Source: the human T2T-CHM13v2.0 reference genome, Homo sapiens. Taken from it: a stretch of 64,000 nt of DNA. The stretch covers positions 12,896,001 through 12,960,000 of the forward strand of contig CP068257.2 of NCBI GenBank assembly GCA_009914755.4. The letters are read 5' to 3'. Every line of letters begins with the position of its first letter. Within the stretch, counting starts at the first letter, position 1. The notes beneath the pieces are model-generated. The model was not told the origin of the DNA, ran no database searches, and was given only the letters and a program-made list of their open reading frames with translations. This document shows positions 3,691 through 62,200 of the stretch, in pieces. The translations under genes were made by a program, and so were the position numbers.

Positions 3691-5988
3691 ACAGATACTG
3701 CTCTTTATTCATATAATATGCAAAGAAAATTACCCACCAAAATAAATGTGAATTATGAGGAAAGGAGTTATTTTAAGACATAATTACAAATGGAAAAATA
3801 TCACTTCCATGTTAAAAGGAAACAATCCAACTGAATGTATGAAAAACATGCCTGTGCCTCTATATTCACATCTCTTTAAATTCATGCAGAATGAAACCAT
3901 CTGTCTAATGAAAATAAGAATTCATTCACAACAAAACTTAGCATTTCCAATGTGACCATTTTCTGTGATATGTTTTGTTCAAAGATGTATATTTTTTCAA
4001 AATTTTTTTTATTTTATGAATAAGGAAGTCAAGATTAACAATATTCCAAGTGTATTATAATAGTTACTGCTCTTAAGCCAAATGATGATGATGGAGTAAA
4101 GTATCATTTTGACAATAGTTTAATGTTGTAAATATGACTCTAACTCACTATAAAATACAGGCTTTATTAAATACTCTCTCTTTAGATTTTAAATACTTTG
4201 AGGTATATCATTCTCCATATTAACTTTTATGATCTTCCCTAAACCTACTATTGTTAACTATTTGTTGTACTTAATCAAGTAAATATCATATAAAATTAAT
4301 CTTAAATGGAAGCACAAGCCATGCTTTTAAAAACTTTTCTGTATTATTTGGAAAATGTTACTTTGAGTTTTTCTTATATTAGGGAAAAAGAAATCATGAT
4401 ACGTTATCTAGCTACATTTTAAACTAAAGATGCTTGTCTATCCATTATTATGCATATGTGTCAGAAAGAATTAATATTCAAAATCATTTATTCTCAGTTT
4501 CCAAAGATAAGAAATCATTTATTTTTGTTTCCTTCAGAAAAACTTGGATGGTAACTTCCAAAGAGTTTCAAAATATTGACCATTGTTCAATGTCTCATCA
4601 ATTCAAAAGGTCATAACAAATGAAATAAACCAATCTCTTTCTCTGAAAATGGGTGCCTAACATATAAAGACTGATAGACAATAAATCAATCCTTAAAAAA
4701 AATCTGGACTCAGCTATTGTTTATCTCAGAAAGAGACTAAAAATTGTATTTACCTGAGAAAAGAAATGTACAAGTATTGGAGAAATTTTCTGACATTGGT
4801 ACTTTGTAAATAGTTGTTTTACGTTATTAATAAATCTAGAGTTCTACAATAGAATTTGAACTTTATCCCATGTTATACTTTTTTTTTAAAAGTAGCACTT
4901 ATTGCCAAGACAAAGAACAGAGTAACATTCCACATATTACCAATTTGTCAAGTCTACCAGTATATGGTGTTTTGATGCTTCTCAAAACACAGCCCGATTT
5001 TTTGTGTAGTAATAACATTAGTTCGAGAGAATAGCAAATATACATCTTTACAACGAGCTATCATGATTTAACATTCAAAAATGAGAAAAGTCTTATATTT
5101 AACCATAACATTTCCATTTTACAACCTTCTTATAACTCTATTTTGAAGAGCTAATTACTTAAGAGATAAAATTCATTCAGTAGACTGTTCAATAGACGTT
5201 GACAATCTCATAGTCATTAAAAACATGCAAGAAGATTTTATAATAACAAACACTCAGAGACCACTAAATTGATTTTCTTGAAGTTGAACTGAACTCAAAC
5301 TTCACTTACAGATGTAAATGTTCCAATATGCACCATAAGACAAAATTACAGAGACAATAATTGCTAGGTGTGATTTAAAATCTAACTTTGCAATTTAATT
5401 TTTCCGTATTTGCCATGAGGCATTAAACCCTATGTTTGACTTATGACTGACAGATGAGAACATTGTATGTGTTCAAACACACATATGTGTTTATTTTCTA
5501 TTAAATAGTTTGATTTTATTTAACTATGTATGAAATCACCTTACCTTTGGTTTTTGATGTTTCTCCTTCTCTGAAACATTGGATGGCTTTCTCTTGAGCA
5601 TTTTGAATTCTGACTACTCCTAGTGAGTGCACTTTCTGCTGTTACAGAAACAACTGAAAACAGTCAGCAGTGTGCTGTCTAATGCACAGCATCAGATAAG
5701 GTTGAGCCCAGGGACCTGCCACTTCCTCCTTCGGTCAGGATATGACTTCAACATTTACATGGGTAATTTTTTTTTCTTACAGTAATTCTTTGGTAACTCT
5801 TTATTGTCTTGCTATTTTCTATGAGGTATGTTCCAAATCTCATATTTAGACATGCCTGCAGTTATGAGAGCCATAAGGATTTCAAAACAAAACTCATTTT
5901 CTTGGTTTATATAAAAGTAAAAATTTACAATGCATTCCATGGGTAGAAAAAAGAAAAAATCAGAGCCAATAACTGAAATAAAACTTGA

Positions 5989-19143: not shown

Positions 19144-19803
19144 TCAAAATCCCTCTTTTAGGCAGACAGAGATAAGAATGAATGGGATTTGAATTCCCCA
19201 CAGGCATAATATATTGTTTCTGGGCTCTTCCCAGCATTCTTGTTATGCTGCAAGATTTGGAAGGAGGTGGTCTCATCTTATTTGTTTAACAATTATTTAC
19301 CAAATATCTATTATGGGCCTGGGACTCTGTCAGGTGTCCAAAGACGGAAAGGTATGAACTGTGCCTTCCAAGACTTTACAGTTCAGTGGGAAGACAGGCA
19401 GATCAACAGAGAGTGAGAATCCAATGTAACATGTTCTGTATCAATCTGAGGTGTAATAAGCAGTGAAAGCATAGAGGGTAAATTGTTAATTTGCCTGGAG
19501 AAGTTAGGAAATGTTTTACTAAAAAGGTAATTCTTGAGAAAACATTTAGTGAAACAGGAATTTGTCAGGTGGACAAGAAAAATGGGGGGCATATTCTAGC
19601 AATGGGCAGAGTATATGATATTAGAGGCATGAAATTGTTTGGTACTGAAACCATCTTTGCAAGATTATGGCAGCAAGAAATCTGACATAGCTGACTCCAT
19701 CTTGCTTCTGACCTCCAAGCTGTCCTTGATCATTCCTGAGTGTAGGCCAAGCTAACTTTAGGAAGAATTTAGTATATAGTTTAATCTTAGAGCAAAGATT
19801 AAA

Positions 19804-20275
19804 CTTCAAAACATGTCTCTTTCTTTGTTCAGGTAACATTATGCAGACAGGAGAGCTCTAATATAACATTTTGGACCAAACTGAGAGAGAAGAGGGGTGA
19901 TCTTTTCTGCATTCTGTTTGTCTGTTTCATAGACAAGAAAACTCTGAGGAAGTTTAGTAATCAACAAGCTTTAGAAATTTTGAAAACTGGAAGAAAGGTA
20001 TATCTCTCTATTTCCCATCTCTACTTCATGCTCCACATTTTAGTCAGTGCCTTTTATCTAACCACAAATCTAACTGTGTCCCTCTCTTGCTTCACAATGG
20101 TTCTTCAGTGGTTCCCCACCCCATGTAAATGTATACATGCTCACCTTACATTCAGCTCTACGCTATTGAGCATAGTATATTAGTTTTCCAAGGCTGCCAT
20201 AACGAAGTCATACAAACTGGGTGGCTTATAGCAGCAGATATTATTGTCTCAGTATTGGAGGCTAAAAGTCCAAAA
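19804..20275. repeat. Left arm of a local inverted duplication (unique sequence plus the terminal ~110 bp of an MLT1-type LTR in antisense)
   Basis: The reverse complement of 21320-21790 aligns with this segment at an estimated ~94% identity. For example, 'catgtctctttctttgttcaggtaacattatgcagacaggagagctctaatataacatt' here matches the reverse complement of 'aatgttacctgaacaaagaaagagacatg' on the right. The two ORF-track peptides are near-identical: 19980..20183(+) 'KTGRKVYLSISHLYFMLHILVSAFYLTTNLTVSLSCFTMVLQWFPTP...' and 21228..21833(-) '...KIGRKVYLSISHLYSMLHISASAFYLTTYLTVSLSCFTMVLQLFPTP...'. Confidence 0.8.
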
Positions 20276-20924: not shown

Positions 20925-21421
20925 GCATGTGTTATGGGTTGAACTATATGGCCAAAAAAGATATGTTGAATTCCTGACCCCCAGCACCTCAGAATGTGAC
21001 CCTCTTTGGAAATACGATTGTTGCCAATATAATTAGTTTAGTTAAGATGAGGTCATATGAAGCAGGGTGAACCCTTAATCCAATAAAACCAGTGTCCTTG
21101 AAAGAAGAGGGAAACTTGGACACCCACATGCACAAAGGGATGACCATATAAGAACAAACAGGGAGAGACTGGCCATGTGAAGATGGAGGCAGGAAGTGGA
21201 ATTATGCCACCATGAATCAAGGAATGCCTAATGCCCAGGGCTATCAGAAGCTGGAAGAAACAAGGAAGGAGTCTCTCCTAGAGGCTTTGAAAAGAGCATG
21301 GCCCTGCCAATACCTTGATTTTGGACTTTTAGCCTCCAGAACTGAGACAATAATATCTGTGGCTGTAAGCCACCCAGTTTGTATGACTTTGTTATGGCAG
21401 CCTTGGAAAACCAATATACTA
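20925..21421 (+). mobile_element. ERVL-MaLR solo LTR (MLT1-type), sense; its last ~100 bp lie inside the right arm of the inverted duplication
   Basis: 'tgttatgggttgaactatatggccaaaaaagatatgttgaattcctgacccccagcacctcagaatgtgaccctctttggaaatacgattgttgccaatataattagtttagttaagatgaggtcatatgaagcagggtgaacccttaatccaataaaaccagtgtcc...catgtgaagatggaggcagg...ttggacttttagcctccagaactgagacaataatatctgtggctgtaagccacccagtttgtatgactttgttatggcagccttggaaaaccaatatac' follows the MLT1 consensus from the 5' 'tgt..' start to the 3' 'aactaatacaa' end. Confidence 0.65.
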
Positions 21422-21790
21422 TGCTCAATAGTGTAGAGCTGAATGTAAGGTGAGCATGTATACATTTACTTGGGGTGGGGAACAATTGAAGAACCATTGT
21501 GAAGCAAGAGAGGGACACAGTTAGATATGTGGTTAGATAAAAGGCACTGGCTGAAATGTGGAGCATGGAGTAGAGATGGGAAATAGAGAGATATACCTTT
21601 CTTCCAATTTTCAAAATTTCTAAAGCTTGTTGATCACTAAACTTCCTCGGTGTTTTCCTGTCTATGAAACAGACAAACAGAATGCAGAAAAGATCACCCC
21701 TCTTCTCTCTCAGTTTGGTCCAACATGTTATATTAGAGCTCTCCTGTCTGCATAATGTTACCTGAACAAAGAAAGAGACATGCTTTGAAA
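21320..21790. repeat. Right arm of the local inverted duplication (MLT1 3' end plus ~370 bp of adjacent sequence)
   Basis: Reverse-complementary to 19804-20275 (see the left-arm entry). The homology stops sharply on both outer sides (~19803 and ~21791). On the inner side it stops where the left arm's MLT1 copy is truncated at ~20276. Confidence 0.8.
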
Positions 21791-21844
21791 TATAATCCTG
21801 CCAGGTCCCCTTATTTAGTGATGGGAATGTCATAGTGAAAAATG

Positions 21845-21905
21845 ATAATACTAATACTATCTATACTATATATATTTATATATATGTATGTATATAATAC
21901 TATAT
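21845..21905. repeat. (TA)n/(TATG)n microsatellite
   Basis: 'tatctatactatatatatttatatatatgtatgtatataatactatataatat'. Confidence 0.7.
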
Positions 21906-39186: not shown

Positions 39187-40639
39187 TAATTCCAGCACAA
39201 GTGGAGTATGGTTAAGTTCCATGAAGATGAGGGCAGTGTAGATATCATTTAGCTCTGTATCTCCAGTGCCTGATATTGTGAATAGCAAATAGTAGGTTGG
39301 CAGGATGTGTTTCATGGATATGGAATGAAAGAATAATGCCCTCAAATAATGTAGAAGTTCAAAGGAAGGAGGGACTACTTCTGCCTGGTGTTACTCAGAA
39401 AAGCTTTCTAGATGATGAAGTATTTGATCTGAGTCTAAGGGATGATGGGATGGGTTCTAACAGAGAGAATTCACATATCAGGCAGAGGCCATCACACTGT
39501 CACAAAGATAGAGGGAAGAAAGTGTGAGACAGCCTTTAGGAATAGCAAATCATTCAGTTTGGCAGTTCGGCATAGGAAATCAATAAGGTGGGGGTAGTGC
39601 ACAGATAAGACTGAAAAATTAGATTGAGTCCAGACTGATGAAATCCAGAAATGCCAAGTTAGGGAGTCCAGATTTTATTCTTGAAGAAAACTCTGACTAT
39701 TTGTGTTCAGATGCCTATACAACAGCTTAGCCACTTGCCAAGGAGTCATCAGCCTTGATCCTGCTTCTGAAGATATCAGAGGGAGTCATCAGAAGCACGT
39801 CCTAATTATATTACCAGCTACTCTCCAAGAAGCTACTCTAAGAGAAAACCTGCAAAGTGCAGCAGTCCCAGAAAAGAAGATGAAGATTAAAGAAGAAGGA
39901 GGATATTTAGAAATGATTAATGTTGGTCAGTTTCATCAGTTCTAAGTCTGTTATCAGATACCTGTTATATTTACTATGGCACTTTGAACACAAGTTACTT
40001 TAATTCTAGTCTTTGCAGACTTAATGCACAAATCTTAAAAGGCAAAAAAAGTTCCAAGAGAAAATATGCCTTTTAAGAGACCTCTAAATATGTTATAAAA
40101 TGTAGCTTCTGTCTAAGAAGAGACTGATTCTTTGAGGAAAATGGTAGAGAGTAGGCTCCCTGGATACACAAAATTGTCCCATTCATTCACTGAAAACACA
40201 CATGACCAGAGGAGCTGTAGGTAAAGTTATAAAACATGCCTTGAGCAATTTACAATGAAATTGAAAAAAAAGTACCACTCTTAAGTACTAGAAGATTTAT
40301 AATATTTGACTTTAGCTTCTTGACTATTTCCATTTTTTAGTTAAGAAAGTTAAGATTAAAAGGTTTAAATAACTTATCCAAGCCCAAAAAAAAAGTAGCA
40401 CAGCCAGAATCCATCCAAATTTGTTTGACTCCAGAGAGCATACTCTTTCTCACGTATCACATAATAGCCTTAGAGTCTGCCCTCGTATATGGAAAACACT
40501 CTAATGTAGTAGCTAAAAGCAGGAGCTCTAGCTAAAAGCAAGACCTAGGTTATAGGTCTTGGCTCTACCTCCTGTTAGCTGTCTGACTTTGCACCTGTTA
40601 CCAACTTTTTGTGCCTCCATTTTCTCAACTGTAAAATGA

Positions 40640-40966
<327 letters not shown>

Positions 40967-41442
40967 AAAAATAATATTTCTTAAGGTAATATTTCATAAT
41001 GTAAGTCCTTACCTTATAGAGTTGATGTGAGATTTAAATGAGATAATACATATAAAATGCTTAGGAAAATGGCAGGCCCAAATAAAATGCTCATTAAAAT
41101 TAGCTATTATTTTTCAGTGAAATTTCATTATAATTGCAATAATTTAGACAGTTCACTTCACATTTTCTTGATCTCAGTCAACACACGAAGTCTTCCTTCA
41201 ATCAAAAAGAAATCCCTGGAAAAATTTTATGCAGTCATTAATTTGTACACAAAGGAATATATGAAATGTTAATATGGGTAAAAGTCACAAGAGTTTGGTT
41301 GCTTTTTGGAAAGACAACTCTTGCTCTGGTAACTTTTCTGAAACTGATAAATTTCACTGATTAGCACTTTTGCTATCTGTTTCTTTCCCGACAGTACAAA
41401 ACCCCAGATAAGATGACACATTTCCGTAGTCTGCAAACTTAC

Positions 41443-41795
41443 CCATGAATGTAGGAGATCCATATCTGAGCAGGAAGACTTGAGACGTGTGTGGCGAATA
41501 CAAGAGGAGCAGTGGTCCCAGGGTCCAACTTGTGCTATTTGGAAATCAAGACATGTCCAGAGAGGGTTTTCAGGAAAAAGCTTCCAGTGATGCCACATGT
41601 AAGCTTCACCTTCATACCAAGCTAATTTATCTTCCAAGTTGCAGTCATTTAAAGTGCTGGATCTACCCAGTGATGCAGAAAGAGTATCCAATCTAATCTC
41701 CATTTCTTCCTTCCTCCTCGTGCTAACACTATTCACTTTCTTTTCTCGGGACTTGGTTAATTTCAAACAAGAAATCAACGTGTCATCTTCATCTT
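41443..41795 (-). CDS. Candidate internal protein-coding exon (353 nt) of an unidentified minus-strand gene; encodes ~117 aa '(E)DEDDTLISCLKLTKSREKKVNSVSTRRKEEMEIRLDTLSASLGRSSTLNDCNLEDKLAWYEGEAYMWHHWKLFPENPLWTCLDFQIAQVGPWDHCSSCIRHTRLKSSCSDMDLLHSW'
   Basis: On the minus strand the acceptor 'tttttaacctatttctttgtcattcag|AAGATGAAGATGAC' is a good polypyrimidine tract plus AG (AG is the complement of 41797-41796). The frame is open through the segment as part of the ORF 41269..41778(-), whose stop-to-stop frame extends to ~41840. It ends at '...CATTCATGG|gtaagtttgcag', a perfect GTAAGT donor consensus (complement of 41442-41437). The sequence is non-repetitive and locally less AT-rich. One caveat: the frame stays open another 58 codons past the donor, so the open frame itself does not set the exon boundary. 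Confidence 0.3.
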
Positions 41796-42679
41796 CTGAA
41801 TGACAAAGAAATAGGTTAAAAACTATGATTATAATTCTTCACATATAGGAATTATTCTTCCATTTATATAAGAGAAATAAATACACTGCAATGGATAAAC
41901 CAAGAAGTCATTCAATTTTATAAAATTATTTACAGCAGCATTTATTTAAAAAGCAAGTTATTTTGCTATATAAAATTTTTTGTTTTGTAAAAGTCGCATT
42001 TTTCTGACATTTTTGAAACCATAACAATTGATTAAATTCTATCTCACTGGAAAGAATGGAGGCCACATACAAATAATATGCTGAAAGATATTTGAGAAAA
42101 AAATACAATTAAAAAACCCACCTCTTATGTTTCTATTCTTAAATATTTTTTTAATTTTTAAGGTCATGTGTATAATAAAGAATTATAAGGAAATAAATAA
42201 AATTATTTGCCTTACTTAAAAGAATAAAATCTCAGTGGTTTGGACTGAAATCCTACTGACATTCTGAAATTGTCTATTTTAATATCAATCTACCAAGAGA
42301 TGTATGGATGCAGTGTGTCTCACAGTGAAATGGTTTTCAAAAAACAAGAACGACAAAAATTTAAAAAAGCCATATCTGTAATACCATAAAGTTCATTTGT
42401 GAGATCTATATTTACACAATGTGGCAAAGACTCTGATGAAATTTCTAGTAATGTAGAAAACAGTTACAGAAAATAGAAATATATATCACCCAGAGTCAAT
42501 TGCTCTATGTCATGGAATCCCTTTAAATCCAAACGTTTAATGGGTATTTTTAAAAGAGTTCGATTACTTAAGGCATGCTATTATAAATAAATAAATGAAA
42601 ATCAAAGTTGCATGCCATGGACATACCAATTTGCTATGCTTACATCAAAATTCAAATACATTGTTTTCTATGGCCAAGG

Positions 42680-42800: not shown

Positions 42801-45295
42801 AGATGGGGATGTCTGTTTTAAAATAACTTGGCAATAAAAAAAAATCCTCAATGTTTAATGATTATCTTAAGACTTTATCAAAATGGGCTTCATTAACGTA
42901 TGCTTCCTTAGTTCTCCCTCAAAGGAGTTTTAACAGCTTATTGAGTTCTTACTTACGGAGGTTTATTAATGTCGGTTTCACCTCATCCAGATTCTGCACT
43001 CTGGCTTTCTTAGTCCAAACCAGTTTCTGTAGTCGCTTTAATGTCCCCATTGATTCCACAGGGTCACTGCCTGATTTTATGGCCTAGCACAAACACAGCT
43101 CAAGGTAAAGACAAATTATTCCTCACAAAAGATTAAATATAAAATATGTTGAGATCATAAATGTGGAAAAATTAATAATGTGACCTTAAAACCTGAAGCC
43201 TGAGTCAATTTAAGCACTAACTTGAAAGCACACCATACTTTTTGGGTTCAAAATTATAAAATATGTTACAACTGGCCAGTCATACTAAAGCAGAGTGGTT
43301 TTACCATTTTTTTTTTTTTTTACTTCAAAATACAGCAAAATGGATTGAATTCAGAAATATCTATAAATGACTCACTCCTGCCCACTGTGAAACAGCGGAA
43401 AAAAACAAGATCTTTGCAGTGTAATATAGATGGAACAAGAGGTTCAAAGTTGCTATTTGCTAGTATTGGAATAGACTGATAGTATACAAAGTCTACCTGC
43501 TAATATTAGATAAAGCAGAATTTAAATAGTCTTCATTTTCTTTTTGGAAATTTGTGGACAAACAACATTTGTTTCAAGTATGAAAATTTTTCAAATAACA
43601 TACTTTTAAAAAAATAGCCTCTTGCTTTCTAGAAGATATGCACTAAGTGAAACAAAAGATAGCCACAGCATACCACATCATGTTTTAGAATATGTGTCAC
43701 TTGTTTATTATGACAAAATATGGACAAAATATAATTAACATTGCATTAATGACTCTTGTTTTCTTTAAAAGATTCAGGAATGTTTCCCACTAGTTTACTG
43801 TTGAATTTGTATTTATACAGCTTTTACTTATTATCTTAAGTATAGTTCCTCTTAAGGATTTCAAAATACTTTGGAAATTAACTCTTTGTGTGCTAAGTTT
43901 TATAGGAATTGATAAAAATCATTGTGTTCTGTTGAATTCACTAGTTGTGATGTAATACATATAGGAATACTTTTTCATCCAGAAAGTTCTAGACTCAGAA
44001 ATATTTCTCCACCTGCTTTTGTCTCATTCTTTCCATTGAACAGCTGATAAATAGCATCTACAAAGACACTGCAGTTTTCAAGAGGTGAATATTTGCTTCC
44101 TCATTAATGTTTGAATGAGACATATTTATAATAATGCTTTCCAATCCTTTTAAGGAGACTATAAGCCCAAATAAATGTTTGGAAGTAAAGGATATCTGAC
44201 ATGCAACATTTCCAATCTTTATACTCAGCTGTTATCTTTGTTCTTTAAGAATGACTTTGCACAACCAGTATAAACTTGTTGATCTGTCTCTGCAAAATAG
44301 CACTTACGTAGGAAATGTGACGTTTTTGTCAGAGGAAGCCATACCTTTTTGCATTAAATAAGTGGGAAAATATTGAAATCATTTTAATCTTTCAGAAAGG
44401 ACTGTGATGAGATATGCTTAGAAGCACAAAATCTTCCCTCTCTTTCCAAAGGCCATGCTCTGCTCATCACAATTTCTATTGCTGTTTATTTTTTTGTATT
44501 ATTTCTCAGTGTTTCTTTTAGTGCTTTCTGAGTTACTTGATTTTATAGACCCTTTACAACTCAGGAAAGGCCATTTTCTACTCTTTAGACCCTTTCAGAA
44601 ATAATAAGATGACATTGCACAACCATTTTTTCTTTGTTGTGCTTCTATTCTTATGGCAACTTCTTGTTACAGCCAAAGCTTAATTGCTCCACTGAAACAC
44701 TGGCAACAAAAATCGTCTTCTCTTCTCCCTTTGTGAAAAAGGCTTTCACTTAATGTGGAGAAAGGTATTATATACCAGGGAAATGGAACTTTGTATAAAT
44801 GATTTTCCCCCAAGAGGAACTAAAGCATTTGGAAGGTATCTGAATTCAGGTAAGTAAGATCTCATGTCCTAGAGGTTTTAAAACAAACTGACCTTTCATT
44901 ATTTTGTTCACATTCTATTGTAGCCTTTTTAAAGCATGATATTGTTAATTTTTGTATCTTTATTCACTTTGAGTTACTGGACATCAGTCTACTGCATTTT
45001 ATTTATTTTTAAAAATCCTATGTGCCTAGGATTGTACATGGCTTAATAAATATGTACTGAATGTAAATACAATCCTAATTTTATACATGTTTTATATACA
45101 AAATGGAGTATCCATAGTACATGTTTGATACTAGACTCATTACTTTCTAGTAGCAAATTATTTCTGGACAACCTCCTCTTGTTAATAGGTACTATATATC
45201 CAAGGGATGAAATTTAGAGTTAATATTATTATAAAAGATATAGAATCATTACAACTATGTATTAAAAAGAAAATGTATTCAGATTAAAAATACAG

Positions 45296-47092: not shown

Positions 47093-47891
47093 ATTACACT
47101 TTAAGTTTTAGGGTACATGTGCACATTGTGCAGGTTAGTTACATATGTATACATGTGCCATGCTGGTGCGCTGCATTAGGTATATCTCCCAATGCTATCC
47201 CTCCCCCCTCCCCCCACCCCGCAACAGTCCCCAGAGTGTGATATTCCCCTTCCTGTGTCCATGTGATCTCATTGTTCAATTCCCACCTATGAGTGAGAAT
47301 ATGCGGTGTTTGGTTTTTTGTTCTTGCGATAGTTTACCGAGAATGATGATTTCCAATTTCATCCATGTCCCTACAAAGGACATGAACTCATCATTTTTTA
47401 TGGCTGCATAGTATCCCATGGTGTATATGTGCCATATTTTCTTAATCCAGTCTATCATTGTTGGACATTTGGGTTGGTTCCAAGTCTTTGCTATTGTGAA
47501 TAATGCCGCAATAAACATACGTGTGCATGTGTCTTTATAGCAGCATGATTTATAGTCCTTTGGGTATATACCCAGTAATGGGATGGCTGGGTCAAATGGT
47601 ATTTCTAGTTCTAGATCCCTGAGGAATCGCCACACTGACTTCCACAATGGTTGAACTAGTTTACAGTCCCACCAACAGTGTAAAAGTGTTCCTATTTCTC
47701 CACATCCTCTCCAGCACCTGTTGTTTCCTGACTTTTTAATGATCGCCATTCTAACTGGTGTGAGATGGTATCTCATTGTGGTTTTGATTTGCATTTCTCT
47801 GATGGCCAGTGATGATGAGCATTTTTTCATGTGTTTTTTGGCTGCATAAATGTCTTCTTTTGAGAAGTATCTGTTCATGTCCTTCGCCCAC
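47093..47891 (-). mobile_element. LINE-1 3' end (young L1PA-type, antisense), 5'-truncated to ~800 bp; ORF2 C-terminal frame intact for 200 codons
   Basis: The reverse-complemented L1 terminus 'attacactttaagttttagggtacatgtgcacattgtgcaggttagttacatatgtatacatgtgccatgctggtg' and the G-rich 3'UTR ('ccctcccccctccccccaccccgcaacagtcccc') are present. ORF 47276..47878(-) reads '[200 protein letters not shown]', the L1 ORF2p C-terminus. The 5' truncation is at '...ctgttcatgtccttcgcccac'. Confidence 0.95.
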
Positions 47892-52900: not shown

Positions 52901-53559
52901 CCTGTTATGGCATACTCATGCTGTTTCCAAGTTCTCTTTTTTAGCAATGCTATAATGATGTACACTTCTCCCAGAAACATGGGATAACACCTATTTCCCC
53001 CAAAATCAGACGACATGCTTTTTAACATTATAAATTTTTTCCTATCTCAGGAAAAATTGCTAAATTTTAGGGAAAATTTTTTATATAACAACCTTTCCTT
53101 CTTTGAAGGAAATGCTTTATGTTCCTTTTAGTTCAGAAAACCACTCAGTAAGGACAAGCCTCTATTTATGTTCTTTAGAAACACTTCCATGTGGCAGCTG
53201 AAAACAGAAGTAATAAAGAACTATAGAAAACAGTGCTTGTGGCATTAAAATGAGTGGAAAAGAGATGGGAAATCCACTTAAATAGTTACATCTGGGAAGA
53301 AATGTCTCACCAGTTCATCAACAGTGGTCTCAACATGTCTTTGATAGTGAAATGGACTCCAACATTCAGAGGTCACCTTAGAAATTAGAAAAGGAAAAAG
53401 AGACAACTAATGTTAACATTCTTTAAAAAACAAAACAAAAAAACTCCACAAAGCTACCAAACTAATTGGGAAAGGATTCGCTGTCTTAATTAGAAATAAT
53501 TATCTTGTTATCAAAGTACACTGATTAATGTTTCATCAGTGACTTCATCTGCATATATA

Positions 53560-59225: not shown

Positions 59226-62200
59226 ACCAACTCTCTTGAATTCAAGAGTTTCATGGTTTGTGTACTGAATATTGTCACATAAAAATACCACTTCCTAGGC
59301 TCCAGTCATGACGATCCAGGTGAACAGGAGTATGGCACCAAAGTCTGCCTTTTTAAGTAATACTCCAGTTGAGGCTGATACAGACAGTTCTCAGATACAC
59401 TTGGAAAAACACTTATCTGATAGTCATTTGTTCACTGATGGAAGGCCAAGTTTCATGCCATAGTCCACTCTTATGCACACTGACAAGCCACTTTGCTACT
59501 CACACCAGCTTCTCCATTTGACAGTGGCTGCCTCTCTTCCCCATCTTTCAACAGATAGTTTGCATCTCCTTCTCCTCAGTCACAAGGAGTTAATAAATTA
59601 ATATTTTGCATAACACTCTTTGTTAAACTATTCTGTCATATAGATAAGTGTTTCTTAGTTAAATTCAATTGAATGTCTACTGTGAATAAAATTTAGATAA
59701 GACCAGTGCCTACTCCCAAACGACGATTTTTAGATTAGATGGCTCCTGCTTGTCTGTCACTAGGTATGAATTCCTTCGATCTTTAGTGATACACTACATG
59801 TCACAGTTGAATGGTTACCATTTGGAAGCACCATTTCTTGCCCAATTTTAACCTTCAGAAGCATTGTTGTTAGGGTAAAGATTTATCTTTAACCATTTTA
59901 TTCAAAGAACTTTCTATGTTACTTTCTTCTTTCCACGAAACGGGTCTATTTTTCTACGAAAAACCTACAGAAGGATTTCCTCTTGGCAGAAGGCATGTCT
60001 AGTGAGCTATTCCAGTAAACCAGCTGTTATTTTTCTCCTGGCCAGCAGACAATGCTTCACTTAGATATTATATCTGAGGTCTCATCTGAATTTAGGAAAA
60101 TGAGACTGCTTGTTTCAGAGATAATCTTCCAGCTGTGCTTGTGCAAGTCTTATTAAGCCCTTGAAAGAGTAAGAGGAGAAGGAGGGTGAGGGAGAAGAGG
60201 AAGAAAAGAGGAGGAGCAATGACAACAAATGAATTTTTGAAAGTATGTCTTAACTACCAGACATAGAACTATAGTGTTTTAATGACAGGTCTCACTGAAT
60301 CCCATGAAAGTACTGAGATATTTTTTATAGATGTATTTTACAGATGATAAAAACAGAGGCAGAGAGAGTCTAAGTAAATTGCACAATGCCACATAGCTAC
60401 TAACAGTCAAAGCAAGATTCAAACTGAGCTCTGTCTGATATCAGAGCTCTCATCCATGCACTGTGGGAGAACCCACTGGGAGATACTACAAGGGCAATGT
60501 GTTATCACATCTTGTAGCATAGGCCTATCACTCTGGTAGCATCAGAGCAGTCAGCAGAAACTCTAGTGGATCAAAATCATGATCTACCATCTAATTTATT
60601 GGAGGGCCTCCAATAGCCTCAGGAATCAGGCTGGATTTAGGAATGTGAGCCCCCCCTTCCTCACCAAATCAGCACTTTATAATTCATATGCTATGTACCT
60701 TCTATCCACTGCACCGAAGAAGTTCAGTTCTAAATTTTCTAATGAAACTATCAGAATGATTAAAGAGAACCTCATGGCTGTCAGAGAAAATATCAAAAGT
60801 CAGTCTGATGCCTGAATTGGCCTTGTTGACTCATATATCCTCTCTTGTTACAGGGTGAATAGCAAGTATTTGGCCATTGATTAATGTTACATTACTATTA
60901 TTAGTGAGGCCAAACATTCAGACTTTTTTAATTATCCAAACTCCTGGGCTAATTAATGCAGTTTTGAAAGGGATTGGTCAGGACTCACAGTTTATGTTTT
61001 TATATAAGTGTTTAGCATAGGTCTTGACAGGAACATCCCAGTATATTAATTTAATATTCCCAGAGTTACTTATCAAAAGGCTGTACAACATGATGTTTTG
61101 CAAAATCAAAATAGTTTATTATCTTATCATCATTGAATTTTTTTCATTTATATTTCAATTCACAGGGACATAAGCATATCAATTATAAAGCAACCTATAA
61201 TAACTAAATAGAAACTAGCTAAAAGGCTGTGTAAGTATTGTACACTATGCCTAATATATTACAGAGCTGAGTAACAAGACGATTTTCACAAAACACGCAA
61301 ATGCTGATTATTCACATTACCTGATAGGAAGTTCCTTGTAGAGTTTTTCCTTGATAGGTATGTATGTTGTTACTTAGAAAATCATCTTCATTTAGATCTA
61401 AGAAAAGAGATAACTGTTACATACAGAATATCAGACATTACAGGATTTAGGAAGTTTCGGTGCAATTTAACACTCATGTTTTTATTTAGTCTGTAAGACA
61501 TTACATTGGCTACGTCAAAAATATTTTTTTTTGTTAAATATATGCTATTTTTCTTTTTTTTTAACAAGAAACAGATCAAAATAAAATAGAAATTTAACAA
61601 AATAGGGATGCCGCTGACCATCTGTGTCCCTGAGGAAGTGATGGAAATTCACTGTGACTCCCTTTCTTGGTAATAATAGGATTGTGGACTAGCTACAAAA
61701 GCCACTTCTAACTTCAACATGCTATGACTCCATGCAGTTATCACCTCACCTGTTTCTATTAAACTAAGCTTTCCACCCCTGGCATTTTGAGCTTCATTAG
61801 CTTAGGTCTTCTCAACATGAATTATTTATGTTGAAATTGTTCTATGCATGCTTTAGTGAAAGCTTTGCAATGTAGCATCCATTTGCTTGCAGCTAAATGA
61901 AACCTTTTCAAATGCAGCAGCACTTCCCTTTTAGCTCCTGCAAATGGGAGCTTCATTTATTTAAGTCTGAAATATATGGTATGTTAAAAGAGGACAAGAC
62001 TTTATGGGTCACTTAATCCAAGCCTCTTATTTTACAGATAAGGAGAGTGCAACCCAACATCACCTGGTCAGCAGACCAGGGCCGTTTCCTTTCACTTTCA
62101 CTCCTATTTACTTGCAACCATTGCTTCAGTTTTCTACTATTCCTCATTCTCATATTCTGCAGTGGAAGCAGGGACAGGCAAGTCCTATCCTCCATGCACA

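What the first reader, a model, noticed from the sequence alone, without database searches (positions are those of the whole stretch)
41443..41795. Candidate protein-coding exon on the minus strand (353 nt, consensus acceptor, perfect GTAAGT donor)
The acceptor reads 'tttttaacctatttctttgtcattcag|AAGATGAAGATGAC...' on the minus strand. It is followed by 117 uninterrupted codons of non-repetitive, less AT-rich sequence. The encoded peptide begins DEDDTLISCLKLTKSREKKVNSVSTRRKEEMEIRLDTLSASLGRSSTLNDCNLEDKLAWYEGEAYMWHHWKLFPENPLWTCLDFQIAQVGPWDHCSSCIRHTRLKSSCSDMDLLHSW. It ends at '...CATTCATGG|gtaagtttgcag', an exact match to the GTAAGT 5' splice-site consensus. With 2 nt plus 117 codons, the exon would sit between an intron in phase 1 and one in phase 0. 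Beyond the two L1 ORF2 remnants, this is the only long open frame in the window that is not repeat-derived (about 190 codons stop-to-stop). A ~0.06-per-codon stop frequency in this AT-rich DNA predicts roughly 0.2 chance ORFs of that length in 64 kb. I do not recognise the protein.
Basis: partly seen in the sequence, partly recalled or inferred. Interest (0 to 1): 0.55.

Follow-up and report, generated by a model that had tools for sequence, protein, structure and literature searches.

The report
Known coding exon of long SAMSN1

Summary
The 353-nt minus-strand exon at 41795..41443 is exactly as described: AG acceptor, 2 nt plus 117 open codons, GTAAGT donor. It is not a chance ORF. Its peptide is residues 199-315 of human SAMSN-1 isoform 6 (NP_001382786.1, 669 aa) and also lies in isoform 7 (NP_001382787.1, 701 aa). 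There it joins ...TLINLQ|DEDD upstream and ...DLLHSW|RSSSFGNF downstream. An internal ATG (41703..41701) starts isoform 2 (NP_001243299.1, 441 aa). The window carries two missense alleles relative to RefSeq (N248D, P270L). The usual SAMSN1 first exon lies 36 kb downstream on the same strand, and three more long-isoform exons lie upstream in the window. The frame is open in tamarin, treeshrew, rhino, meerkat, skink and parrot DNA. TGG|GTAAGT is identical in all seven species, and dN/dS is 0.07-0.55. Proteins with the same exon-to-RSSSF junction exist in marsupials, axolotl, reedfish, gar and teleosts. The locus was formerly annotated separately as LOC388813 / AF165138.7. The encoded segment sits just before the SPIDER region, has no Pfam domain and no confident predicted fold. 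Its function has not been studied. Verdict: supported, already known, low interest.

The parts
41443..41795 (-). The exon itself: 353 nt, phase 1 to phase 0. It encodes residues 199-315 of SAMSN-1 isoform 6 plus two bases of the Q198 codon.
   Evidence: sequence and translation. (115/117 identity to NP_001382786.1, with junctions INLQ|DEDD and HSW|RSSSF).
41437..41442 (-). 5' splice site GTAAGT, directly after the TGG (Trp) codon.
   Evidence: TGG|GTAAGT is identical in human, tamarin, treeshrew, rhino, meerkat, skink and parrot. Annotated proteins continue with RSSSF of the next SAMSN1 exon.
41796..41825 (-). 3' splice site: a pyrimidine-rich tract (ctatttctttgtcattcag) with a possible branch point ttaac.
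   Evidence: The cag/tag|AA acceptor is conserved in five mammals. In skink and parrot the exon appears to start about 27 nt further upstream, inferred from the protein models and the extended open frame, with the same phase.
41701..41703 (-). Internal ATG (Met31 of the exon, context GAAGAAATGG). It is the start codon of the 441-aa SAMSN-1 isoform 2.
   Evidence: The exact 441-aa sequence built from this ATG with reference alleles is NP_001243299.1. Macaque and gelada 441-aa proteins start at the same Met. Codon checked.
41644..41646 (-). Codon GAC (Asp) where RefSeq has Asn (N248D in isoform 6 numbering).
   Evidence: Chimpanzee and macaque also have Asp. Both alleles occur in many public contigs.
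41578..41580 (-). Codon CTT (Leu) where RefSeq and other primates have Pro (P270L). Other mammals have Pro, Ser or Thr.
42957..43083 (-). Preceding exon, 127 nt, phase 0 to phase 1: AIKSGSDPVESMGTLKRLQKLVWTKKARVQNLDEVKPTLINL+C. It carries the KRLQKLV basic motif.
   Evidence: Flanks are ctag| and |gtaagt.
53311..53376 (-). Long-isoform exon, 66 nt: VTSECWSPFHYQRHVETTVDEL.
61321..61397 (-). Long-isoform exon, 77 nt: (D)LNEDDFLSNNIHTYQGKTLQGTSYQ.
5545..5601 (-). Coding part of the usual SAMSN1 first exon (MLKRKPSNVSEKEKHQKPK|gtaagg, phase 0). It is the alternative start that the long forms bypass.
   Evidence: The 373-aa sequence is exactly NP_071419.3 / Q9NSI8.

Best explanation
The feature is an annotated protein-coding exon of the human gene SAMSN1 (also called HACS1 or SLy2), used by the long isoforms that start about 37 kb or more upstream of the usual first exon.

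Shown:
- The exon is spliced from the preceding exon (43083..42957, phase 1).
- Through its GTAAGT donor (phase 0) it joins the second exon of the 373-aa form, which begins RSSSFGNF and lies beyond the window.
- In the 669- and 701-aa isoforms it is an internal exon. In the 441-aa isoform its internal ATG is the start codon.
- It replaces the 19 residues MLKRKPSNVSEKEKHQKPK with a long N-terminal extension. Its 117 residues sit directly in front of the disordered SPIDER region, which is followed by the SH3 and SAM domains.
- This architecture predates the split of ray-finned fishes and tetrapods.

Inferred:
- The encoded segment is an unstructured linker carrying short conserved motifs: TLISCMKLTKSQEKK, WKxFP[ED]N, DFxI...W, and S-x-TD-x-DL.
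- It is the SAMSN1 counterpart of the SASH1 segment between NLS1 and SPIDER.
- By changing the residues just before the RSSSF serine cluster, it may alter phosphorylation-dependent 14-3-3 binding and nucleo-cytoplasmic distribution of the adaptor. That role of the serine cluster comes from my own knowledge of SLy-family biology. It was not tested here.
For: Identity with curated proteins. The peptide matches residues 199-315 of NP_001382786.1 and lies in NP_001382787.1 at 115/117, with both junctions as predicted. NP_001243299.1 is an exact match to a protein built from the exon's Met31 onward.

Context. The usual SAMSN1 first exon and three further long-isoform exons are on the same strand of the window. 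Spliced together, the four long-isoform exons translate to isoform 6 residues 108-315.

Domains. Pfam SPIDER starts at residue 316, followed by SH3 and SAM.

Conservation. The frame is open for 116-117 codons in six other amniotes. The only length change is one whole codon. The donor is invariant.

Selection. dN/dS is 0.07 for skink versus parrot and 0.23-0.55 among mammals. Fisher tests are significant for all listed pairs except human-tamarin. Third codon positions vary most (38/41/61 variable columns, p=0.035).

Long forms elsewhere. Long proteins with the same exon-to-R[SA][ST]SFG junction occur in koala, Dromiciops, axolotl, reedfish, gar, whitefish and loach.

Earlier annotation. Orthologues are named 'putative uncharacterized protein ENSP00000383407'. 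LOC388813 / ENSG00000243440 carries the related name 'uncharacterized protein ENSP00000383407-like' (PMC6557731) and is listed at 21q11 next to SAMSN1 (PMC4657880). AF165138.7 is listed in the same chromosome region (PMC3262805).

Disorder and SASH1 link. AlphaFold2 gave mean pLDDT 51.6 and pTM 0.16. Pfam and PDB sequence searches found nothing. hhalign against SASH1 gave 60% probability (E 8.8e-5) in local mode and 84% (E 8.7e-7) in global mode, with anchors at KRLxKLV and at S-x-T[DE]-x-[DE]-[LM] before R-x-x-SFG.
Against: No transcript, ribosome-profiling or peptide data could be consulted here. Use of the exon in human tissues therefore rests on the curated status of the NP_ records.

Constraint in mammals is only moderate:
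- The exon's nucleotide identity (0.76-0.92) is no higher than that of the flanking intron.
- Human-tamarin dN/dS of 0.53 is not significantly below 1.
- Public human-like contigs show three missense-variable sites within 117 codons.

Many automatic models in other species end by reading through the donor instead of splicing to SAMSN1. A horse protein skips this exon and the two exons before it.

The functional part of the statement (linker, effect on the RSSSF site) is inference only. Homology of the exon's middle part to SASH1 is not detectable.
Confidence: 0.96

Rival explanations
1. A chance open reading frame with fortuitous splice-like motifs in AT-rich intronic DNA.
For: Other long open frames in the window are non-coding, for example the 210 codons at 21231..21860. 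The human frame runs 57 codons past the donor.
Against: There is an exact match to curated human proteins. The protein is conserved as far as fish. The frame and the donor are conserved in seven amniotes and dN/dS is below 1. The expected number of chance frames this long is 0.02-0.05.
Confidence: 0.003
2. In humans the exon mainly serves as the last coding exon of a separate short product (the old LOC388813 / ENSP00000383407-type gene). That transcript would read through or retain the downstream intron. It would not be part of SAMSN1 protein.
For: RefSeq models in leaf monkey, baboon, snub-nosed monkey and elephant, and submitter annotations in macaw, end by read-through. Treeshrew, rhino and meerkat have a stop 3 codons after the donor. 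Rhino and meerkat have AATAAA about 200 nt downstream. The locus was long annotated as its own gene.
Against: Curated human isoforms 2, 6 and 7 splice it to SAMSN1. The donor GTAAGT is invariant over roughly 300 million years of amniote evolution (my estimate of the divergence time), which read-through use would not require. The read-through tail is not conserved. Human DNA has no AATAAA or ATTAAA for 1438 nt downstream. Fish, amphibian and marsupial proteins use the junction. The two uses are not mutually exclusive.
Confidence: 0.1
3. The exon is still spliced in humans, but its coding function is decaying. Under this reading the long protein is dispensable in primates and the exon drifts nearly neutrally.
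For: Human-tamarin dN/dS is 0.53 and not significant. Three missense-variable sites occur in public contigs, including the window's P270L. The exon is no better conserved than its flanks in mammals. A 2012 paper lists no annotated mouse orthologue for AF165138.7.
Against: The frame is intact in every primate sequence seen: human haplotypes, chimpanzee, macaque, baboon, gelada, leaf monkey, squirrel monkey and tamarin. There are no indels in five mammals, against 2-16 gaps per 400 nt of flank. Most mammalian pairs have dN/dS significantly below 1.
Confidence: 0.1

Closest known systems
Human SAMSN1 long isoforms: NP_001382786.1 (isoform 6, 669 aa), NP_001382787.1 (isoform 7, 701 aa) and NP_001243299.1 (isoform 2, 441 aa)
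   Same: The exon encodes residues 199-315 of isoform 6 and the first 87 residues of isoform 2. The junctions, phases and flanking exons are all as annotated.
   Different: There are only two missense alleles, N248D and P270L. Both are also seen in many public contigs.
LOC388813 / AF165138.7 / 'putative uncharacterized protein ENSP00000383407' (older separate-gene annotation at 21q11.2)
   Same: Same locus and strand, upstream of the usual SAMSN1 start. Orthologues carrying this name in meerkat, leaf monkey and snub-nosed monkey contain the exon. LOC388813 is listed at 21q11 next to SAMSN1, and AF165138.7 is listed in the same chromosome region.
   Different: Those models end by read-through or in non-conserved tails and do not join SAMSN1. 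A squirrel-monkey protein with this name (138 aa) holds only the exons further upstream. That AF165138.7 is the same gene as LOC388813 comes from my memory, not from a tool result.
SASH1 N-terminal region between NLS1 (residues 259-275) and SPIDER (from about residue 400)
   Same: Same family and the same order of parts: a basic KRL[QH]KLV...KK motif, then a linker of about 150 residues, then S-x-T[DE]-x-[DE]-[LM], then R-x-x-SFG-x-FD opening SPIDER, then SH3 and SAM. The compared segments are 205 residues long in both. hhalign gave 84% probability, E 8.7e-7, in global mode (SASH1 positions from PMC13467429).
   Different: The middle of the exon (the Trp/Phe/Pro-rich part) has no recognisable counterpart in SASH1. 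In local mode hhalign did not reach the exon at all. The single HMMER profile search found no SASH1-length protein among hits at E<=0.001.
Canonical 373-aa SAMSN1 (Q9NSI8) and SASH3/SLY1
   Same: SAMSN1 shares everything from RSSSF onward: SPIDER, SH3 and SAM.
   Different: The short forms start with about 19 residues (MLKRKPSNVSEKEKHQKPK) from an internal alternative first exon and lack the extension this exon belongs to. I did not look for a long SASH3 form.

Membership tests
Annotated coding exon of human SAMSN1 long isoforms | The encoded peptide is present in the curated protein sequences. | tested here: met
   115/117 identical to residues 199-315 of NP_001382786.1, and also present in NP_001382787.1. 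NP_001243299.1 is reproduced exactly from Met31 with reference alleles.
Annotated coding exon of human SAMSN1 long isoforms | Both exon junctions fall where the genomic splice sites are. | tested here: met
   Proteins read TLINLQ|DEDD and DLLHSW|RSSSF. The genome has C|gtaagt ... cag|AA and TGG|gtaagt. The four spliced window exons translate to residues 108-315.
Annotated coding exon of human SAMSN1 long isoforms | It lies in the SAMSN1 locus on the gene's strand. | tested here: met
   The usual first exon (19/19 residues of NP_071419.3) is at 5601..5545 on the same strand.
Annotated coding exon of human SAMSN1 long isoforms | Spliced transcripts and translated product are observed in human tissues. 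| not testable with these tools
   No RNA-seq, cDNA, ribosome-profiling or proteomics resource was available. This rests on the NP_ (curated RefSeq) status of the records and on the TrEMBL entry A0A2R8Y4K8.
Protein-coding sequence under purifying selection | The reading frame is preserved across species, with length changes in whole codons only. | tested here: met
   There are 117 codons in five mammals and 116 in skink and parrot, with no stops. The chance of no stop under random placement of the observed substitutions is 0.02-0.2 per species.
Protein-coding sequence under purifying selection | Excess of synonymous over non-synonymous change. | tested here: met
   dN/dS is 0.07-0.55. One-sided Fisher p ranges from 0.017 down to 1e-22 for five listed pairs, and human-tamarin is not significant (p=0.10).
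Protein-coding sequence under purifying selection | The exon is better conserved than the flanking intron. | tested here: not met
   In mammals exon identity is 0.76-0.92 and flank identity is 0.72-0.92. Only the absence of gaps sets the exon apart. Between mammals and sauropsids only the exon is alignable.
SLy family (SASH1, SAMSN1, SASH3) adaptor | SPIDER, SH3 and SAM core downstream of the segment. | tested here: met
   Pfam PF12485, PF07653 and PF00536/PF07647 hit human isoform 6 and the axolotl and gar long forms.
Homologue of the SASH1 NLS1-to-SPIDER linker | Significant profile-profile similarity over the exon-encoded segment. | tested here: inconclusive
   Local hhalign gave 60% probability, E 8.8e-5, and covered only the exons upstream of this one. 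Global hhalign gave 84%, E 8.7e-7, with confident columns only at the two ends.
Folded domain or zinc-binding motif | A confident predicted fold, or invariant Cys/His ligands. | tested here: not met
   AlphaFold2 mean pLDDT was 51.6 and pTM 0.16. Only one Cys of the C-terminal cluster is invariant among amniotes, and none is invariant once fish are included. Pfam and PDB searches gave no hit.
Repeat-derived ORF (L1, Alu or other interspersed repeat) | Similarity to transposon proteins, or multiple copies. | tested here: not met
   The peptide matches a single place in the window. There is no Pfam hit. Orthologues sit at the syntenic position next to the KRLQKLV exon in six species.

The most novel reading that the evidence does not exclude
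The exon belongs to an ancestral N-terminal extension of about 315 residues in SAMSN1. The extension is conserved from ray-finned fish to humans and is collinear with the SASH1 N-terminus: an NLS1-like KRLQKLV motif, a linker of about 150 residues, then an S-x-TD-x-DL motif directly before SPIDER. A 2026 SASH1 review still draws SAMSN1 as a 373-aa protein and calls the N-terminal extension unique to SASH1. If the long protein is made, it could have its own localisation or partners, and the exon could modulate the adjacent RSSSF phospho-site. In that case part of SAMSN1 biology (B-cell regulation, myeloma suppression) would have been studied with only the short form.
Probability: 0.45. Interest if true: 0.3.

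Novelty: already known. Interest (0 to 1): 0.08.

Why it matters
As a discovery it does not matter, because the exon is already in curated human annotation.

It is a useful positive control for the scan. A reader without tools picked out a true coding exon, with correct boundaries and phases, from raw AT-rich sequence.

There is a small residual point. The long SAMSN1 isoforms that contain this exon are old and conserved but essentially unstudied. Recent family reviews still describe SAMSN1 as lacking an N-terminal extension.

Tried and rejected
- Pfam and PDB sequence searches with the 117-aa peptide found nothing.
- A zinc-finger reading (Cys-x14-Cys-x2-Cys-x2-His) was rejected. The cysteines are replaced in tamarin, sheep and treeshrew and are shifted in birds and fish.
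- AlphaFold2 with a 12-sequence alignment gave no confident fold, so I ran no fold search.
- Rfam on 38-46 kb found no RNA family.
- I considered splicing from the exon into the 5'UTR of the usual first exon, as in a sheep hybrid model of 659 aa. It is rejected for human because that UTR has in-frame TAG codons.
- I considered use as a read-through terminal exon. The tail is not conserved and human DNA has no poly(A) hexamer within 1.4 kb.
- My first guesses about shorter internal donors, made to explain a remembered 441-aa isoform, were wrong. The 441-aa form starts at the internal ATG.
- DNA look-ups failed for squirrel monkey and manatee (not on record) and for sheep (gene range too long).
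- The literature has nothing specific on the long isoform.
- The 210-codon open frame at 21231..21860 was checked as a possible second exon and rejected.

Full report
**Observation.** On the minus strand the window reads ...tagtttttaacctatttctttgtcattcag|AA GAT GAA GAT GAC...CAT TCA TGG|gtaagtttgcag. This gives an exon at 41795..41443 of 353 nt, made of 2 nt plus 117 stop-free codons, encoding exactly the quoted peptide. The stop-to-stop frame is 189 codons. With a measured stop frequency of 0.0605 per codon, 0.05 frames of that length are expected in the window, and block shuffles gave 0.02.

One detail needs correcting. The window holds two longer open frames. The first is 204 codons (47279..47890, minus strand) and reads by eye as the Cys-rich C-terminus of L1 ORF2. 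The second is 210 codons (21231..21860, minus strand) and is not recognisably L1. It lies on one arm of a 479-nt inverted repeat and is broken by stops and frameshifts in meerkat and treeshrew.

**Identification.** The peptide alone hit nothing in Pfam or the PDB. A first protein search found elephant, manatee and tamarin models that all begin MGTL[NK]RLQKLV. That upstream exon is in the window at 43083..42957 and ends ...CTC C|gtaagt. The split codon C+AA therefore gives the Q seen in those models.

The usual SAMSN1 first exon (MLKRKPSNVSEKEKHQKPK|gtaagg, phase 0) lies at 5601..5545 on the same strand. I had recalled the 373-aa SAMSN1 sequence from memory, and a later look-up showed it to be exactly NP_071419.3 / Q9NSI8. 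From the ATG of the upstream exon, 94 + 353 nt = 447 nt. The GTAAGT donor is therefore phase 0, compatible with the phase-0 second SAMSN1 exon.

The cluster that holds human SAMSN1 contains curated records:
- NP_001382786.1, isoform 6, 669 aa
- NP_001382787.1, isoform 7, 701 aa

Both read ...TLINLQ|DEDDTLISC...DLLHSW|RSSSFGNFDRF. The exon is residues 199-315 of isoform 6. A 441-aa protein built from the exon's internal Met31 (ATG at 41703..41701, context GAAGAAATGG), using reference alleles, is exactly NP_001243299.1, isoform 2.

Four window exons (61397-61321, 53376-53311, 43083-42957, 41795-41443) splice in frame to residues 108-315 of isoform 6. The window differs from RefSeq at two residues, N248D (GAC) and P270L (CTT). 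Open frames called on public contigs show these two sites plus an H/Y site in several combinations. The window therefore appears to carry a frequent human haplotype.

**Earlier annotation.** NCBI names several orthologues 'putative uncharacterized protein ENSP00000383407'. One paper gives LOC388813 the name 'uncharacterized protein ENSP00000383407-like' with identifier ENSG00000243440 (PMC6557731). Another lists LOC388813 at 21q11 with ABCC13, HSPA13, SAMSN1 and SAMSN1-AS1 (PMC4657880). A third says AF165138.7 in this region has no annotated mouse orthologue (PMC3262805). From memory I take AF165138.7 to be the same gene as LOC388813. So this stretch appears to have been treated as a separate uncharacterised gene before being merged into SAMSN1.

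**Coding-type conservation.** I fetched orthologous DNA for meerkat, parrot, skink, tamarin, rhino and treeshrew. The findings were:
- All six keep 116-117 open codons. The only length difference is one whole codon in the sauropsids.
- TGG|GTAAGT is identical in all seven species.
- The mammalian acceptor is cag/tag|AA. In skink and parrot the exon appears to start about 27 nt further upstream, judging from the protein models and the extended open frame, in the same phase.
- Past the donor the frame stops after 3 codons in treeshrew, rhino and meerkat and after 22 in tamarin.
- dN/dS is 0.07 for skink versus parrot and 0.23-0.55 among mammals. Synonymous sites are saturated between mammals and sauropsids while pN is about 0.3.
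- Fisher tests are significant for all tested pairs except human-tamarin. Variable columns by codon position are 38/41/61 (p=0.035).

There is a caveat. Among mammals the exon's nucleotide identity is no higher than that of its flanks. Only the absence of gaps (0, against 2-16 per 400 nt of flank) sets it apart. With three missense-variable sites in humans, constraint in primates looks moderate.

**Depth and architecture.** A profile search of 1.84 billion representatives found 43 proteins. They include full-length long forms in which the exon homologue is followed directly by the SAMSN1 core:
- koala and Dromiciops: ...DMDLPHPW|RSSSFGNF
- axolotl: ...DIDLAYAW|RASSFGSF
- reedfish, gar, whitefish and loach

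The long form is therefore ancestral to bony vertebrates.

Pfam places SPIDER at residue 316 of human isoform 6, immediately after the exon, followed by SH3 and SAM. A horse protein joins the upstream exons directly to RSSSF, skipping this exon and the two before it. The exon and its immediate upstream neighbour together total 127 + 353 = 480 nt and the third skipped exon is 66 nt, so the skip keeps frame. This suggests cassette behaviour.

**What the segment does.** Nothing is known experimentally. The literature searches returned no study of the long isoform. AlphaFold2 gave no confident fold (pLDDT 51.6, pTM 0.16). A zinc-binding reading fails because the cysteines are not invariant.

The positions conserved from fish to human within this exon are the SC-x-x-L...K stretch, DF, a Trp, and D-x-D in S-x-TD-x-DL right before RSSSF.

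Against SASH1 N-terminal sequences, local hhalign gave 60% probability, E 8.8e-5. The match covers the upstream exons, including ES..[LF]KRL[QH]KLV, and does not reach this exon. That motif coincides with the validated SASH1 NLS1 at residues 259-275 (PMC13467429).

A global comparison of the segment from that motif to the start of SPIDER gave 84%, E 8.7e-7. The two segments have equal length (205 vs 205). Confident columns occur only at the two ends, including S-x-T[DE]-x-[DE]-[LM] before R-x-x-SFG.

My inference is that the exon encodes a disordered linker that is the SAMSN1 counterpart of the SASH1 NLS1-to-SPIDER segment. By replacing ...HQKPK with ...DLLHSW in front of the RSSSF serines, it may change how that regulatory site is used. 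The role of the serine cluster in 14-3-3 binding and shuttling is from my own knowledge of SLy proteins and was not tested here.

**Rivals.**
- A chance ORF is excluded.
- Use as a read-through terminal exon of a separate short product is suggested by many automatic models. It is opposed by the invariant donor, the non-conserved tail, the absence of a poly(A) hexamer within 1438 nt in human, and the curated spliced isoforms. It may coexist as a minor form.
- Functional decay in primates cannot be excluded from the weak primate dN/dS signal. Against it, every primate sequence seen is intact.

**Verdict.** The feature is an already annotated exon of SAMSN1 long isoforms, so novelty is nil and interest is low. 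The only mildly new angle is that this conserved N-terminal extension is ignored in the SLy-family literature. A 2026 review depicts SAMSN1 as 373 aa and calls the N-terminal extension unique to SASH1.

Noticed in passing
window 19797-20275 and 21319-21797: Inverted repeat with 479-nt arms, 95% complementary, separated by a 1043-nt spacer, inside the long SAMSN1 intron. A 210-codon open frame (21231..21860, minus strand), longer than the candidate exon, lies on one arm. It has no Pfam hit and is broken by stops and frameshifts in meerkat and treeshrew, so it is not coding. The origin of the duplication is unexplained.
   Followed up: partly
window 41578-41580, 41644-41646 (and the WDHC/WDYC codon in public contigs): The window allele differs from RefSeq SAMSN-1 isoform 6 at N248D and P270L. 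Open frames called on public contigs show D/N, P/L and H/Y in at least six combinations: (D,L,H) on 53 contigs, (N,P,H) on 87, (D,P,Y) on 51, (D,P,H) on 37. That makes three missense-variable sites in 117 codons, which suggests relaxed constraint in humans.
   Followed up: partly
window 47279-47890 (minus strand): A 204-codon open frame reading ...[20 protein letters not shown]... By eye this is the C-terminal Cys-rich part of L1 ORF2. There is no Pfam hit at E<=0.01.
   Followed up: partly
L004 4479-4829 (tamarin): The deposited tamarin protein (P0005) lacks 25 residues in the middle of the exon, yet the tamarin DNA encodes all 117 codons intact. This is a gene-model artefact, not a lineage-specific deletion.
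   Followed up: yes
Horse protein P0169 (UniRef F6ZWG6, 480 aa); window exons 53376-53311, 43083-42957, 41795-41443: A horse SAMSN1 protein joins the upstream N-terminal exons (...GISHQ) directly to RSSSFGNF, skipping these three exons. The last two total 127+353 = 480 nt and the first is 66 nt, so skipping keeps frame. This suggests alternative cassette use.
   Followed up: no
N-terminus of long SAMSN1 proteins (encoded upstream of the window); P0178, P0141, P0152, P0164: The start MNLFCFSLEGSMDSLYEP is almost invariant from teleosts to human. It resembles the SDSMDSLYSGQSSSSG motif inside SPIDER, which may be an internal repeat of a short motif.
   Followed up: no
window 43083-42957 (exon before the candidate): Its KRLQKLVWTKKARV motif aligns with SASH1 FKRLHKLVNSTRRVRKKL, which coincides with the experimentally validated SASH1 NLS1 (residues 259-275 according to PMC13467429). 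The long SAMSN1 forms may therefore carry an extra nuclear localisation signal.
   Followed up: partly
Homologue lists: No named rodent, lagomorph or bat protein containing this exon appeared, and a 2012 paper states that AF165138.7 has no annotated mouse orthologue. The exon may be lost or unannotated in rodents.
   Followed up: no
window 40609-41000: Alu-like sequence, with translations such as [25 protein letters not shown], lies about 450 nt downstream of the exon's donor. It ends the stretch that aligns with other mammals.
   Followed up: no
window 15002-14862, 9746-9639, 33546-33384 (minus strand): The C-terminal tails of the squirrel monkey, treeshrew and rhino gene models map here at 55-79% identity, some with stops in human. 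These look like non-conserved alternative 3' exons used by automatic models.
   Followed up: no
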